DNA of 64,000 nucleotides from an uncultured Gemmatimonadales bacterium (GTDB lineage: Bacteria; Gemmatimonadota; Gemmatimonadetes; Gemmatimonadales; GWC2-71-9). The position numbers and the translations under genes are program-made. The DNA lies in the NCBI GenBank assembly GCA_963825055.1, contig CAWGSK010000012.1, positions 224,001 through 288,000 on the forward strand. Direction: 5' to 3'. Of the stretch, positions 20,813 to 61,850 are shown piece by piece; the first letter of the stretch is position 1; every line of letters starts with the position of its first letter. Under the pieces are notes generated by a model, which saw nothing but the letters and a program-made list of their open reading frames with translations, did not search any database and had not been told where the DNA came from.

Positions 20813-20884
20813 TCCGCCTGTCCGCCTGTCCGCCTGTCCGCCTGTCCGCCTGTCCGCCTGTCCGCCTGCCCGCCTGCCCGCCTG
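20813..20884 (+). repeat. Octamer tandem repeat (TCCGCCTG)7(CCCGCCTG)2
   Basis: Nine consecutive units read directly from the sequence. Confidence 0.97.
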
Positions 20885-35988: not shown

Positions 35989-36836
35989 GCGACATGATCG
36001 CTATCGTCGGCCCGGGACGCATGGGGCAGGGGCTCGGGCTGGCGCTCGTCGTTTCGGGCGCCGAAGTCCGCATTCTTGGACGCCGGCGGCGGGAGATGGC
36101 TGGCGGGCTCCGGCTGGTGACCCGTGACTGGCGCCCGGTTCTGACGGAAACCGATCTGGTGCTCGTGGCGACCCGGGACGACGCGATTGCCAACGCCGCC
36201 AAGGACCTGGCCGACCTCGCCGTGCTCGGCGGGCGGCACACGGTCCTGCATCTCTCCGGCAGGCTTGGCCGGAGCGCCCTGGCGCCGCTGGAGCGCACCG
36301 GGGCGTCCCTCGGCAGCCTGCATCCCCTCCAGACTATCGCCGATCCGCTCACGGCCCCGGCACGCCTCCGGGGCGTCTTTGCCGCAGTGGAGGGTGACGA
36401 CCGGGCCCGGGAGGCCGCGACGGCCCTGTGCGGTCGCCTGGGGATGCGTCCGGTGGAGGTGGATGAGGCAGGGAAGCCCGCGTACCACGCCGGCGCGGCC
36501 GTGCTGGCCAACTACACGGTCACCCTGGCCGACCTGGCCTCGCGGCTGGCGGAGCAGGCCGGGGTGGCTCCCGAAGTGGCCCACATGATGTACCTGCCGC
36601 TGTTGTCGGGAGTGCTGCAGAACCTGGAGTCCATGCCACCGGCCGATGCACTCACCGGACCGATCCGCCGGGGCGACGTTGACACGGTCAAGGCGCACCT
36701 CGCCGGTCTGGACGAAGCCGAGCGGGAACTCTACCTGGTGCTGGGGCGTGCCACGCTGAGGCTCGCGGTGCGTGGCGGACTGGATCGGGAGGCGGCGGTG
36801 GCGGTGGGGGAGGTGTTGGGGGTGGAGGAGGTCTAG
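35985..36836 (+). CDS. Rossmann-like + DUF2520 domain protein
   Basis: GPGRMG, HLSG, HPLQT, YHAGA, ALTGPIRRGD. Confidence 0.9.
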   Translation: MSDMIAIVGPGRMGQGLGLALVVSGAEVRILGRRRREMAGGLRLVTRDWRPVLTETDLVLVATRDDAIANAAKDLADLAVLGGRHTVLHLSGRLGRSALAPLERTGASLGSLHPLQTIADPLTAPARLRGVFAAVEGDDRAREAATALCGRLGMRPVEVDEAGKPAYHAGAAVLANYTVTLADLASRLAEQAGVAPEVAHMMYLPLLSGVLQNLESMPPADALTGPIRRGDVDTVKAHLAGLDEAERELYLVLGRATLRLAVRGGLDREAAVAVGEVLGVEEV

Positions 36837-36932
36837 GGGTCGAAAGGTCGAGAGGTCCAGGGTCGAGAGGTCAGGAGAGCCGGAGTACTCGACTCCTCGA
36901 CTGCTCGACTTCTCGACTTCTTGACCTCTCTA
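36829..36932. repeat. Bipartite inverted octamer repeat, AGGTCGAG family (empty site 1)
   Basis: Left AGGTCTAG GGGTCGAA AGGTCGAG AGGTCCAG GGTCGAG AGGTCAGG; 12-nt spacer; right CTCGACTC CTCGACTG CTCGACTT CTCGACTT CTTGACCT CTCTA. Confidence 0.92.
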
Positions 36933-38719: not shown

Positions 38720-38866
38720 GAGTCGAGGGGTCCAGAGGTCGAGCAGTCGAGTGGTTTCGGCCTCCAGACCTCTCGACCCCTCGACCTCTCGACCGTTCGA
38801 CCTCTCGACTTCTCGACTTCTCGGCTTCTCGGCTTCTCGACCTCTCGACCTCTCGACCTCCGACTT
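38720..38866. repeat. Bipartite inverted octamer repeat, AGGTCGAG family (empty site 2)
   Basis: Left GAGTCGAG GGGTCCAG AGGTCGAG CAGTCGAG; right about 12 units of CTCGACYT (38764-38859) running into the smc stop. Confidence 0.95.
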
Positions 38867-43766: not shown

Positions 43767-43798
43767 GGGGGGAAAGTAACGGGGGGAGGGCGCCACCC

Positions 43799-43865
43799 GT
43801 AGGGGCGGGTCTGGACAGGCGGACGGGCGGTCAGGCGGACGGTAGGGGCGGGTCTTGACCCGCCC
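43799..43865 (+). repeat. GTAG-type REP-like palindrome with partial duplicate and intervening GGACAGGC octamers
   Basis: GTAG-GGGCGGGTC-TT-GACCCGCCC at 43842-43865; GTAGGGGCGGGTCT also at 43799-43812; GGACAGGC GGACGGGC GGTCAGGC GGACG lies between them. Confidence 0.75.
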
Positions 43866-43930
43866 CCGCCCGCGCGGCGAGTCACACCATCCACGGCAGT
43901 CATTTGACCATGGTGGGCTATGGCTTAACC

Positions 43931-44468: not shown

Positions 44469-44558
44469 AGTGAGTAGTGCTTCAGGGCGAGCGTCACCCG
44501 AGTGGGTTCGGCCCCATCCCTGATTCACTACTCACTACTCACTACTCACTACTCACTG
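44469..44558. repeat. Bipartite heptamer repeat, CTCACTA family
   Basis: Left AGTGAGTAGTG; right TTCACTA (CTCACTA)3 CTCACTG at 44524-44558, next to the stop of the Omp85 gene. Confidence 0.88.
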
Positions 44559-52080: not shown

Positions 52081-52231
52081 GTTGAGTGGTTGAACAGCTG
52101 TTTCGTCGGCTTGACACCGTTGCACGTCGCTAACATTCTACAACCTAACGACTTAACGACTTAACGACTTAACGACTCAACGACTCAACGACTTACGATC
52201 TAACGACTCAACGACTAACCACCCAACGCCC
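52081..52231. repeat. Bipartite octamer repeat, YAACGACT family
   Basis: Left GTTGAGTG GTTGAACA; right (TAACGACT)4(CAACGACT)2 TACGATC TAACGACT CAACGACT, decaying into the pirin ATG. Confidence 0.95.
52111..52139 (+). promoter_or_regulatory. Candidate sigma70 promoter for pirin, in the spacer between repeat arms
   Basis: TTGACA-17 nt-CATTCT. Confidence 0.45.
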
Positions 52232-53094: not shown

Positions 53095-53172
53095 GTTGAG
53101 TTGTTGAGTGGTTGAGTAGTTGAGTGGTGAGTTTGATTCAGCCGGGATCGCACGACTCAACGATTTACCGCT
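53095..53172. repeat. Bipartite octamer repeat, GTTGAGTN / CAACGA family
   Basis: GTTGAGTT GTTGAGTG GTTGAGTA GTTGAGTG GTGAGT right after the pirin stop; right arm CACGACT CAACGATT TACCGCT. Confidence 0.9.
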
Positions 53173-55806: not shown

Positions 55807-56901
55807 TCACACATTAAACCGGAACAGCATCACATCCCCGTCCTGCACCACGTATTCCTTCCCTTCGGCCCGGGACAGGCCCTGCTCCCGCGCGCCCTTC
55901 CAGCCGGCGGCCTTCACGAAGGCCTCATAGGCGACGGTCTCCGCGCGGATGAATCCCTTCTCGAAGTCCGAGTGGATTACCCCGGCGGCGACCGGGGCCT
56001 TGTCCCCGCGATGGATGGTCCAGGCCCGGACCTCCTTCTCGCCGGCGGTGAAGTAGCTCTGGAGGCCGAGCAGGTGATAGGCCGCGTGCGCGAGCCGGTC
56101 GAGCCCGCTCTCTGTGAGGCCGAGGGATTCGAGAAACTCCGCGCGGTCTTCTGGTGGGAGTTCAGCCAGCTCCGCCTCGACCTTGGCGGAGAAGGTCACA
56201 ATCTCCGCCGGTTCGCCATCCCGGTTGATAGCCGCCTGCAACCCCTCTGTCAGTGCGTTCCCGTCCAGTTCATCCTCGGCGACGTTGGCGGCATAGAGCA
56301 CCGGCTTCGCCGTGAGCAGGTTGAACGTCCGGTAGACGGCGGCGTCTTCGTCGGGCGGTACCACACTTCGCGCGGGCTTCCCGGCGGACAGCGCTGCCTG
56401 GAGCTGTTCCAGCAGCCGTACCTCGGCCTTCGCCTGCGTGTCGCCCGACTTGGCACCCTTCTGCGCACGGTCCAGCCGCCGTTCCACGGTCGCGAGGTCG
56501 GCCAGGCCCAGTTCGAGGTTGATGATCTCGCGGTCGCGCACGGGATCGACATCGCCCATCACGTGCTGGACGTCGTCATCCCGGAAACAGCGGACCACGT
56601 GCACCACCGCGTCCACCTCACGGATGTTGGCCAGGAACTTGTTGCCCAGCCCCTCGCCCTCGCTGGCGCCCTTCACCAGCCCGGCGATGTCCAGGAACTC
56701 CACGGTGGCCGGGAGGGTGCGCTCCGGACTGACGATGCCGGCAAGCGTCTCGAGCCGGGGATCGGGGACCTGGACTACGCCGACGTTGGGCTCGATGGTC
56801 GCGAACGGATAGTTCGCGACCAGCGCCCCGGCCTGGGTCAGGGCGTTGAAGAGCGTGGATTTGCCGACGTTGGGGAGGCCGACGATGCCGAGTCTTAGCA
56901 A
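55807..56901 (-). CDS. ychF: Redox-regulated ATPase YchF
   Basis: TTG 56901 LLRLGIVGLPNVGKST, NYPFATIEPN, DIAGLVKGAS, IHSDFEKGFIRAE, FRFNV. Confidence 0.96.
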   Translation of the reverse strand: MLRLGIVGLPNVGKSTLFNALTQAGALVANYPFATIEPNVGVVQVPDPRLETLAGIVSPERTLPATVEFLDIAGLVKGASEGEGLGNKFLANIREVDAVVHVVRCFRDDDVQHVMGDVDPVRDREIINLELGLADLATVERRLDRAQKGAKSGDTQAKAEVRLLEQLQAALSAGKPARSVVPPDEDAAVYRTFNLLTAKPVLYAANVAEDELDGNALTEGLQAAINRDGEPAEIVTFSAKVEAELAELPPEDRAEFLESLGLTESGLDRLAHAAYHLLGLQSYFTAGEKEVRAWTIHRGDKAPVAAGVIHSDFEKGFIRAETVAYEAFVKAAGWKGAREQGLSRAEGKEYVVQDGDVMLFRFNV

Positions 56902-56904
56902 GGG

Positions 56905-56936
56905 AGGTCGAGAGGTCCAGGGGTCAAGAGGTCGAG
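56905..56936 (+). repeat. Left arm, AGGTCGAG family, upstream of the four-helix-bundle gene
   Basis: AGGTCGAG AGGTCCAG GGGTCAAG AGGTCGAG. Confidence 0.9.
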
Positions 56937-57037
56937 GGACGCAGAACAAGCGACGAATCGTTCCGGGCCGCGTCGCTTCGGTACGGATTGTTTCCCGGTC
57001 GAGTGTATCTCAGTACGCACTCTTCCGAGACTGGGGC

Positions 57038-57397
57038 ATGGCCGACTTCAAGCAACTGGCGGTCTGGCAACGCTCACACCAGTTCGCCCTTGAGATATAT
57101 CGGGTCACGTCGACCTTCCCTGCCGCGCAGCGGTTCACGCTGACCGCTCAACTTCAGCGCGCGGCTGTGTCGGTCTCCTCCAATATCGCTGAGGGATGCG
57201 GTCGTTCCGGTGACGCCGAATTCTGTCGCTTCCTTCGTATTGCCCGCGGCTCGGCCAATGAAATCGAGTGTCAGCTTCTACTTGCGCGGGATCTGGGCTT
57301 TCTTCCGCGCGACGAGTGGGAGAGGCTGGACTCCGTGTGTCAACTGCTCAGCGCCATGCTCCTGAAACTGGCAAATGCGATTCAGGAGCAACCGTGA
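57038..57397 (+). CDS. Four helix bundle protein (23S rRNA IVP / Avd-like fold)
   Basis: 119 aa: [11 protein letters not shown]...IYRVT..FP...[21 protein letters not shown]...[14 protein letters not shown]...QL..A.DLG. Confidence 0.93.
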
Positions 57398-57407
57398 GAA
57401 GCACCCG

Positions 57408-57433
57408 CTCCACTCTCGACCTCTCGACCTCTC
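57408..57433 (+). repeat. Right arm, CTCGACCT, downstream of the four-helix-bundle gene
   Basis: CTCCACT CTCGACCT CTCGACCT CTC. The unit is the exact reverse complement of the left-arm unit. Confidence 0.88.
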
Positions 57434-57434
57434 T

Positions 57435-59498
<2,064 letters not shown>

Positions 59499-61779: not shown

Positions 61780-61850
61780 TTGGCCCTGGTGGATTCGAAC
61801 CACCATTCTCAGATCCAAAGTCTGATGTCCTGCCATTGGACGAAGGGCCA
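61780..61850 (-). tRNA. tRNA-Gln(TTG)
   Basis: Cloverleaf: TGGCCCT/AGGGCCA acceptor stem, GTCC/GGAC D arm, TCAGA-CTTTGGA-TCTGA, GGTGG-TTCGAAT-CCACC. CCA not encoded. Classical ispE-tRNA-Gln-prs position. Confidence 0.96.

What the first reader, a model, noticed from the sequence alone, without database searches (positions are those of the whole stretch)
56905..57433. Four-helix-bundle (Avd-like) gene enclosed by inverted octamer arrays, with empty copies of the same arms elsewhere: candidate repeat-bounded cassette system
Seen: the gene lies on the opposite strand to its neighbours hppA and ychF. Its left arm is (AGGTCGAG-like)x4 and its right arm is the reverse complement (CTCGACCT)x2+. The same arms occur with only a roughly 12-nt spacer and no gene at 36829-36932 and 38720-38866. 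The 18-mer AGGTCGAGAGGTCCAGGG is identical at 36845 and 56905. Known: this family (TIGR02436 / 23S rRNA IVP) has no established function, and its fold resembles the nucleic-acid-binding Avd of diversity-generating retroelements. Inference: filled and empty sites suggest a small mobile cassette, or a protein that binds or propagates these repeats, with no transposase encoded in cis.
Basis: partly seen in the sequence, partly recalled or inferred. Interest (0 to 1): 0.85.

Follow-up and report, generated by a model that had tools for sequence, protein, structure and literature searches.

The report
Repeat-armed four-helix-bundle gene cassette
A small gene of unknown function sits between mirror-image runs of a short repeat; this genome holds eight such genes, nearly all with their own repeat word, and about a hundred gene-less repeat pairs next to stop codons, which suggests the protein recognises and spreads its own repeat and could explain the puzzling 7-base repeats of many bacteria.

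Summary
Observation confirmed. An intact TIGR02436/PF05635 four-helix-bundle (FHB) gene (57038-57397) lies antisense between hppA and ychF, bracketed by inverted octamer arrays; the two empty pairs are real. It is one of 8 FHB genes in this Gemmatimonadales genome, all bracketed by inverted 7/8-mer arrays, among 588 arrays whose G-rich strand follows stop codons (187 vs 21). Matching inverted arrays flank 110 of 170 FHB loci across phyla (controls 0 of 328). The unit follows the protein, not the genome (1 of 62 co-resident pairs share it). Relatives show naive, empty and filled hppA-ychF junctions. Against a simple MITE: 72 of 111 empty pairs have unmatched arms, share no inner sequence with the filled element, and duplicate strain segments show arms gained or switched in place. 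Best reading (0.5): a selfish RAYT/REPIN-like system in which a pentameric FHB recognises its repeat and seeds arms as half-elements; no catalysis or binding shown. Earlier findings of this scan reported the same design in at least 8 other genomes; papers describe only the empty repeats or one rRNA intervening sequence.

The parts
56905..56936 (+). Left arm: four G-rich octamer units, 3 nt from the ychF start codon (TTG at 56899-56901 on -)
56937..57037 (+). Unique leader; a -10-like hexamer ends 14 nt before the ATG (by eye); no full sigma-70 match; no second copy in the genome
   Evidence: related FHBs carry such a box 5-7 nt before ATG in up to 46 of 72
57038..57397 (+). Four-helix-bundle gene, 119 aa, intact, all six invariant residues (W10 N49 E52 G53 S72 E75); GC3 0.68 vs 0.92 for hppA
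57413..57433 (-). Right arm: reverse-complement octamer units, 1 nt from the hppA stop codon (57435-57437)
36837..36929 (.). Empty inverted pair of the same repeat family; fills the 93 nt between the convergent stop codons of DUF2520 and lolA
38720..38862 (.). Empty inverted pair of the same family between the smc stop and the DAHP synthase (aroF) start
57435..59498 (-). Host gene hppA (sodium-translocating pyrophosphatase), flank
55807..56901 (-). Host gene ychF, flank
53095..53160 (.). Empty pair of another family (that of the FHB on contig C2), directly after a TAG stop
44525..44557 (-). Heptamer arm of another family
52146..52220 (-). Octamer arm of another family, ending just before a start codon
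55742..55800 (-). Composite heptamer arm (two units) downstream of the ychF stop
20813..20884 (-). Octamer arm of the family of the FHBs on C7 and C9
14230..14308 (.). Short composite heptamer pair

Best explanation
A selfish 'gene plus cognate repeat' system built like RAYT/REPIN but with a four-helix-bundle protein. Shown: the gene is packaged between inverted 7-9-nt tandem arrays; each protein lineage keeps its own unit; gene-less arrays of those units are scattered through the genome with fixed polarity, G-rich strand directly after stop codons; junctions occur naive, empty or filled. Inferred: the FHB forms a pentamer like Xcc0516 and binds single-stranded runs of about 4-5 units of its repeat. 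Inferred, less sure: it delivers such repeats to breaks or exposed single strands just behind stop codons, where host repair polymerases extend each 3' end from an existing copy, primed by a few matching bases. Each arm is thus laid down as a half-element; two facing arms give an empty pair, matched or unmatched, and copying through a whole filled element moves the gene. The paired arms loop the insert out of host mRNA, which keeps it nearly harmless, as in rRNA intervening sequences.
For: 8 of 8 resident FHBs bracketed (7 of 8 pass the script cut-off); 110/170 loci vs 0/328 shifted windows, 4/338 permuted pairings; 30/68 metagenome loci vs 0/63. Co-resident FHBs share a unit in 1 of 62 pairs, different-genus pairs at >=50% identity in 12 of 93 vs 31 of 1752 overall; nearest-neighbour unit distance 2.73 vs 3.37+-0.14, 0 of 2000 permutations. 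354 of 588 genome arrays lie within one edit of a resident FHB unit vs 61+-37 for random sets from relatives. Polarity: 112/165 convergent vs 1/156 divergent arm pairs within 100 nt; G-rich arm after a stop 187 vs 21, TAG enriched, odds ratio 3.4. Half-elements: inner units within one edit in only 39 of 111 empty pairs; 239 of 519 arms without a detected partner; one naive/filled pair with arms of two different families and no duplication, one site with the same spacer but switched arms. Median 4.6/4.1/3.6 copies; fold matches pentameric Xcc0516, Z 20.6, rmsd 1.1 over 113. Arms pair on the host-sense RNA.
Against: No binding, cleavage or mobility shown; invariant residues may be structural. 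G031 (8 FHBs) and G020 (6) had 0 arrays in 80 kb each, and FHB-less genomes still had 7 in 288 kb. An abundant octamer family in G007, G019 and G002 had no clearly cognate FHB among 13, 9 and 3 loci examined. The window's own protein is atypical: its 8 nearest relatives all have 7-mers 2-4 edits away. Cross-phylum covariation is modest (2.44 vs 2.82, 26 of 2000). The 354/588 match is partly circular. 60 of 170 loci lack matched arrays. The naive/filled strain pair is a single case of unknown direction in a MAG with 6% contamination. The whole-element fold is only z -2.4.
Confidence: 0.5

Rival explanations
1. Whole-unit transposition: the FHB is itself a new kind of nuclease or transposase (or recruits one) that moves the complete hairpin, as RAYT does for REPINs; unmatched pairs are later recombinants or nested insertions.
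For: Filled elements have matched arms; empty pairs match more than chance, 39 vs 13.1 expected; some spacer 8-mers recur at 5-6 sites; N49, E52 and E75 are invariant in 247 of 247 proteins; the genome also holds GIY-YIG, GxxExxY and Y1 genes bracketed by their own inverted repeats; several divergent RAYTs per genome, each with its own REPIN population, are described (10.1101/2022.05.22.493013, passages).
Against: 59 of 111 empty pairs differ by 3 or more edits; no target duplication; leader of the filled element not reused; top structural matches are non-enzymes.
Confidence: 0.2
2. The arrays spread by host slippage and recombination and serve as mRNA hairpins (terminator, stabiliser, RNase III site); FHB is a repeat-binding RNA regulator or a passenger that hitch-hikes between arms, without driving the spread.
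For: Arms hug stop codons and only 20 of 519 lie inside called genes; copy number varies between strain copies; FHB-rich genomes with few arrays exist; damaged FHBs occur at the ychF junction (G027, perhaps G037); S23p was not detected in vivo and the IVS is cut by RNase III in Coxiella (PMC4990558, introduction and discussion).
Against: A pure passenger would not keep a lineage-specific unit across genera while co-resident FHBs differ; strict G-rich-first polarity and the restriction to periods 7-9 are unexplained by slippage; the window's octamer triplet occurs in 2 of 41 genomes, 34 of 35 matches in the genome with its FHB.
Confidence: 0.2
3. Retro-element model: as Avd does in DGRs, the FHB pentamer holds the element's RNA for a reverse transcriptase in trans; copying from the C-rich 3' arm puts G-rich repeats on a DNA end, and truncated copies are the single arms.
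For: Fold like Avd (Z 14.6, rmsd 2.0 over 112); Avd binds an RNA stem-loop with all five protomers and assists the RT (10.1101/2023.10.23.563531, passages); the FHB's downstream neighbour is on the opposite strand in 8 of 8 resident genes and 57 vs 9 in relatives.
Against: PF00078 found in 6 of 41 genomes, not in G000 (87% complete) nor in array-rich G007, G015, G022; orientation reverses outside this order (37 same vs 11 opposite); Avd's Z is close to unrelated bundles (13.4) at 7-8% identity.
Confidence: 0.1

Closest known systems
ORF-bearing 23S rRNA intervening sequences (S23p; Coxiella, Leptospira)
   Same: Same protein family between terminal inverted repeats; heptameric repeats of variable number upstream of the ORF are noted in Coxiella (PMC4990558, passages and two sections).
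   Different: Here between protein-coding genes, antisense to them, 8 divergent copies with different units, and hundreds of gene-less arms; the paper treats one rRNA site.
RAYT/REPIN systems
   Same: Several divergent small genes per genome, each tied to its own family of dispersed inverted repeats (10.1101/2022.05.22.493013, passages; PMC3733652, passages).
   Different: The gene is not an HUH/Y1 transposase; arms are tandem 7-9-mers, not palindromic REPs; most empty pairs are unmatched. The genome's Y1 genes have other flanks.
G-rich heptamer repeats of Xanthomonas and Nostoc
   Same: Convergent inverted pairs, G-rich strand within 50 bp after stop codons (PMC4692102, passages).
   Different: No protein partner proposed there ('helix bundle' and 'S23': 0 hits). 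The solved FHB Xcc0516 is from Xanthomonas campestris; whether it lies between those repeats was not tested.
DGR Avd
   Same: Similar four-helix fold (Z 14.3-14.6); pentameric RNA binder.
   Different: 7-8% identity; no RT found in the genome; no template/variable repeat context seen beside the gene.
MITEs / IS with terminal inverted repeats
   Same: Filled and empty forms with inverted ends.
   Different: No duplication at the one naive/filled pair, unmatched arms, no shared inner sequence.

Membership tests
TIGR02436 / PF05635 four-helix-bundle family | HMM score above curated cut-off | tested here: met
   124 vs 24 bits; 129 vs 33.8 bits
TIGR02436 / PF05635 four-helix-bundle family | Four-helix fold like Xcc0516 | tested here: met
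   pLDDT 96, four helices; 2gsc Z 20.6, rmsd 1.1, 113 aligned
TIGR02436 / PF05635 four-helix-bundle family | Homopentamer | not tested
   Inferred from the five-chain entries 2gsc and 2rld and PMC4990558; the complex tool takes at most four copies and was not used
23S rRNA intervening sequence | Located inside an rRNA gene | tested here: not met
   Between hppA and ychF; the only Rfam match in the window is a tRNA
23S rRNA intervening sequence | Complementary ends forming a stem around the ORF | tested here: met
   Arms pair in both MFE and centroid folds, z -2.4
23S rRNA intervening sequence | RNase III excision from the transcript | not testable with these tools
   No RNA run listed
RAYT/REPIN | HUH/Y1 transposase gene | tested here: not met
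   Only PF05635 matches the gene; the PF01797 genes lie elsewhere
RAYT/REPIN | Gene flanked by members of a cognate dispersed inverted-repeat family | tested here: met
DGR (Avd) | Linked reverse transcriptase | tested here: not met
   No PF00078 match in G000, 87% complete; neighbours are housekeeping genes
MITE / IS | Target-site duplication | tested here: inconclusive
   None in the single naive/filled strain pair; no close naive allele exists for the window site
MITE / IS | Empty copies derive from the full element's ends | tested here: not met
   The 100-nt leader matches only itself; 72 of 111 empty pairs have inner units 2 or more edits apart

The most novel reading that the evidence does not exclude
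FHB pentamers are programmable repeat-writing factors: each reads its own 7-9-nt word and has host enzymes add that word to DNA ends behind stop codons, like telomere healing, giving head-to-head arrays. This would be a new class of selfish element with no transposase, integrase or reverse transcriptase of its own, the common source of heptamer repeats across bacterial phyla and of ORF-bearing rRNA intervening sequences.
Probability: 0.25. Interest if true: 0.92.

Novelty: new variant of a known kind. Interest (0 to 1): 0.72.

Why it matters
It ties three loose ends together: a widespread protein family without function, ORF-bearing rRNA intervening sequences of unknown origin, and the excess of heptamer repeats in bacterial genomes. 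It names a ligand for each protein, so specificity is directly testable; this one genome supplies eight proteins with seven distinct words as built-in cross-controls. If the protein also drives spread, it is a mobile element without a recognisable recombinase and a small, retargetable single-strand binder.

Tried and rejected
Artefact or chance: rejected. Y1 transposase, GIY-YIG or GxxExxY genes as the tandem arrays' cognate genes: their own flanks are other palindromes; GIY-YIG repeats do sit near arms (8 of 8 and 3 of 3 sites), so a helper role is not excluded. Resident RT: none found. Excision or empty alleles in sequencing runs: four contig-only soil runs of one study, no listed joint skipping the element, 10 joints not shown; no RNA holder listed; both uninformative. 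Sigma-70 promoter and terminator scan: none. Rfam: only a tRNA. Dose relation between FHB number and arrays: weak. FHB at the DUF2520-lolA junction: in 0 of 24 loci. The aroF-smc junction was not compared in relatives. A per-family listing of the sequences inside the arms was not completed. MacGregor 2015 (PMC4679880, passages), PMC5524665, PMC8700078, PMC10053308 and PMC11270868 showed no link between FHB genes and tandem arrays in the passages seen. Tree is the quick one, 14 of 105 branches well supported; used only descriptively.

Full report
OBSERVATION. A 119-aa ORF at 57038-57397 (+) scores far above the cut-offs of TIGR02436 and PF05635 and lies antisense between hppA and ychF. Four G-rich octamers (56905-56936) precede it and two reverse-complement units plus a partial one (57413-57433) follow it. 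The element fills the whole junction: 1 nt from the hppA stop, 3 nt from the ychF start. The pairs at 36837-36929 and 38720-38862 fold at z -3.2 to -4.2. The 18-mer is identical at both places and has 3 genomic copies. The gene has GC3 0.68 against 0.92 for hppA. The genome (3.53 Mb, 68% GC, 87% complete, 6% contaminated) belongs to Gemmatimonadales by inference: a named hit (L134) gave the same protein as a locus of same-family genome G015.

GENOME CENSUS. A motif-free detector found 359, 164 and 106 arrays of period 7, 8 and 9, against 10-27 for periods 4-6 and 10-12 and 6 and 4 in shuffled DNA. Adjacent arms lie within 100 nt in 112 of 165 G-rich-then-C-rich cases and 1 of 156 reverse cases. 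After removing homopolymers, 588 arrays form 519 arms; the counts include some duplicated strain segments. With my own gene calls (3010 genes), 20 of 519 arms lie inside genes; 283 face a stop codon (median 3 nt) and 212 a start (median 63.5 nt); empty pairs sit at convergent junctions in 35 of 109 cases vs 352 of 2975 junctions overall. A stop is followed directly by a G-rich arm 187 times and by a C-rich arm 21 times; TAG is enriched (104 of 187 vs 476 of 1784, odds ratio 3.4), and by eye the stop is often in register with the repeat (45 examples printed). All 8 FHB genes are bracketed by inverted arrays by eye, with seven distinct words; six of the seven detected pairs with 413-539-nt spacers enclose FHBs, the seventh a GIY-YIG gene.

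GENERALITY. FHB genes occur in 34 of 41 genomes of the order, 0-13 matches each. I fetched 105 of the 134 matches in relatives, the best 80 GTDB loci and the best 80 metagenome loci. In the first set (177 loci; 2 without HMM hit and 5 truncated dropped), matched inverted arrays scored >=13 in 110 of 170 and >=15 in 88 of 170 (own 7/8, relatives 48/85, GTDB 33/77); controls: 0 of 328 shifted windows, 9 of 170 in direct orientation, 4 of 338 permuted pairings. In the second set (14 truncated, one duplicate dropped): 30 of 68 metagenome and 10 of 13 further relatives, control 0 of 63. The arrayed GTDB loci span Acidobacteriota, Bacteroidota, Planctomycetota, Chloroflexota, Pseudomonadota, Cyanobacteriota and others. 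About a third of loci lack matched arrays; at least one G031 gene has a plain inverted repeat instead.

THE WORD FOLLOWS THE PROTEIN. Mean unit distance falls from 3.6 edits below 35% identity to 2.4 at 60-70% (108 proteins). With same-genus pairs and neighbours above 70% excluded, nearest neighbours differ by 2.73 vs 3.37+-0.14 in permutations (0 of 2000); co-resident FHBs share a unit in 1 of 62 pairs, different-genus pairs at >=50% identity in 12 of 93, all different-genus pairs in 31 of 1752. In GTDB loci alone the effect is modest (2.44 vs 2.82, 26 of 2000). Kin are not independent, so these p-values overstate. In G000, 354 of 588 arrays are within one edit of a resident FHB's unit, against 61+-37 (max 177) for random sets of seven units from relatives; this is partly circular. 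The window's octamer triplet was found in 2 of 41 genomes (34 overlapping matches in G000, 1 in G039). Against: a second octamer family has 15 or more matches in 7 of 41 genomes but a cognate FHB was evident in only four (G000, G003, G020; G022). The window's protein has 7-mer neighbours only, although the 7- and 8-nt forms of its word replace each other at one orthologous site. Sampled DNA gave 7 arrays in 288 kb of seven FHB-less genomes and 36 in 373 kb of five FHB-rich ones, two of which had none in 80 kb each.

NAIVE, EMPTY, FILLED. Of 30 ychF loci, 9 have hppA directly upstream: gaps of 7-32 nt in four (G006, G002, G024 and G014, the last unpublished and not to be published without permission), 125 nt without arrays in G033, a 103-nt empty hairpin in G017 whose word resembles that of G017's own FHB, 360 nt with a possible remnant in G037, and intact antisense FHBs in G000 and G025 (40% identical, different words). 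G027 has an internally deleted FHB upstream of ychF. Repeated insertion and old insertion with repeated loss both fit. At DUF2520-lolA, 12 of 16 relatives with the convergent pair overlap or leave 3-51 nt, while G000's empty pair spans stop to stop (one of the four long gaps is G014's). The assembly holds duplicate segments at roughly 75-99.9% identity, taken as co-binned strains. Of 30 orthologous array sites, 13 were nearly identical; most others differ in copy number or unit, and three comparisons are self or tandem artefacts. One site is naive in C28 (two convergent TAG stops 5 nt apart) and filled in C13 by 163 nt whose arms belong to different families, without duplication; direction unknown. 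At another (C27 vs C13) the spacer is homologous but both arms changed family. Genome-wide, inner units of 111 empty pairs are within one edit in 39 (13.1 expected, max 27) and 3 or more apart in 59; 239 of 519 arms have no detected partner, some of them below threshold. The filled element's leader occurs once.

PROTEIN. The model is a confident four-helix bundle matching Xcc0516 (Z 20.6), BT_0352 (17.1) and Avd (14.3-14.6, with unrelated bundles at 13.4). N49, E52 and E75 are invariant in 247 proteins; their spacing is compatible with helix packing, so catalysis is open (inference). In this order a -10-like box lies 5-7 nt before the ATG in up to 46 of 72 genes, suggesting leaderless own promoters, and the downstream neighbour is usually opposite (57 vs 9, 39 uncalled); in GTDB loci it is usually the same strand (37 vs 11, 30 uncalled; heuristic calls). 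RT was found in 6 of 41 genomes, not in G000.

MECHANISM. I favour (0.5) a selfish system in which the FHB pentamer reads about 4-5 copies of its word (median copies 4.6, 4.1, 3.6) and seeds arms one at a time at DNA ends behind stop codons, host enzymes doing the copying. Architecture, polarity, covariation and presence/absence are shown; binding, seeding and the enzyme are inferred. Rivals: whole-hairpin transposition by a new nuclease (0.2), host-driven repeats with FHB as regulator or passenger (0.2), Avd-like retro-copying (0.1).

WHAT IS KNOWN. Warrier 2016 (PMC4990558; abstract, introduction, discussion, passages) reports variable heptameric repeats upstream of S23p in one rRNA IVS. Rehm 2015 (PMC4692102; passages) describes convergent G-rich heptamer pairs after stop codons with no protein. 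RAREFAN (bioRxiv 10.1101/2022.05.22.493013; passages) and Di Nocera 2013 (PMC3733652; passages) give the RAYT/REPIN parallel; the DGR structure preprint (10.1101/2023.10.23.563531; passages) gives Avd's role. Ten searches listed no paper linking FHB genes generally to cognate tandem arrays; the library lacks most subscription journals and supplements were not read. Earlier findings of this scan reported the gene-in-heptamer-hairpin design in at least 8 other genomes; they are unchecked notes, not support.

VERDICT. Real, general, apparently undescribed as a system; new variant of known kinds (IVS, RAYT/REPIN), with a 0.25 chance of a new mechanism class. Interest 0.72.

Noticed in passing
G000:C3:91084-91688 (L375, L380): Small GIY-YIG gene bracketed by its own palindromic repeat and nested inside heptamer arms; copies of that palindrome lie near array arms at 8 of 8 sites. 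Di Nocera 2013 says CGTC-type repeats lack a dedicated transposase; whether this palindrome is of that type was not tested.
   Followed up: partly
G000:C13:290996-291343 and C30:97637-97981 (L011, L012): Two GxxExxY genes beside a different inverted repeat family, not near heptamer arms: a third 'small gene plus repeat' system.
   Followed up: partly
G000:C3:21452-21799 and C20:60213-60473 (L009, L010): Two Y1 (IS200-like) transposase genes with their own palindromic flanks.
   Followed up: partly
G000:C18:55755-56090 (L379): A second small GIY-YIG gene begins right beside a heptamer pair.
   Followed up: no
window 56899-56901: ychF appears to start with TTG directly behind the C-rich arm, with no room for a ribosome-binding site; most relatives show ATG, a few GTG.
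   Followed up: no
L027 (G031:C5:681204-684524): FHB enclosed by a long plain inverted repeat without tandem units; most G031 FHBs lack arrays and sampled G031 DNA had none.
   Followed up: no
L032/L200 (G025), L199 (G027), L197 (G037): The ychF 5' junction carries FHBs or remnants in up to four of 30 genomes, always antisense: a hotspot or an old insertion.
   Followed up: partly
window 43790-43900: A palindromic repeat, present twice, interleaved with short octamer units.
   Followed up: no
G000 contigs C6, C14, C16, C21, C24-C28, C31-C33: Duplicate long segments of larger contigs at roughly 75-99.9% identity, likely co-binned strains; long A/T homopolymer runs on C7 and C34 may be assembly errors.
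   Followed up: partly
window 61780-61850: tRNA gene on the - strand.
   Followed up: no
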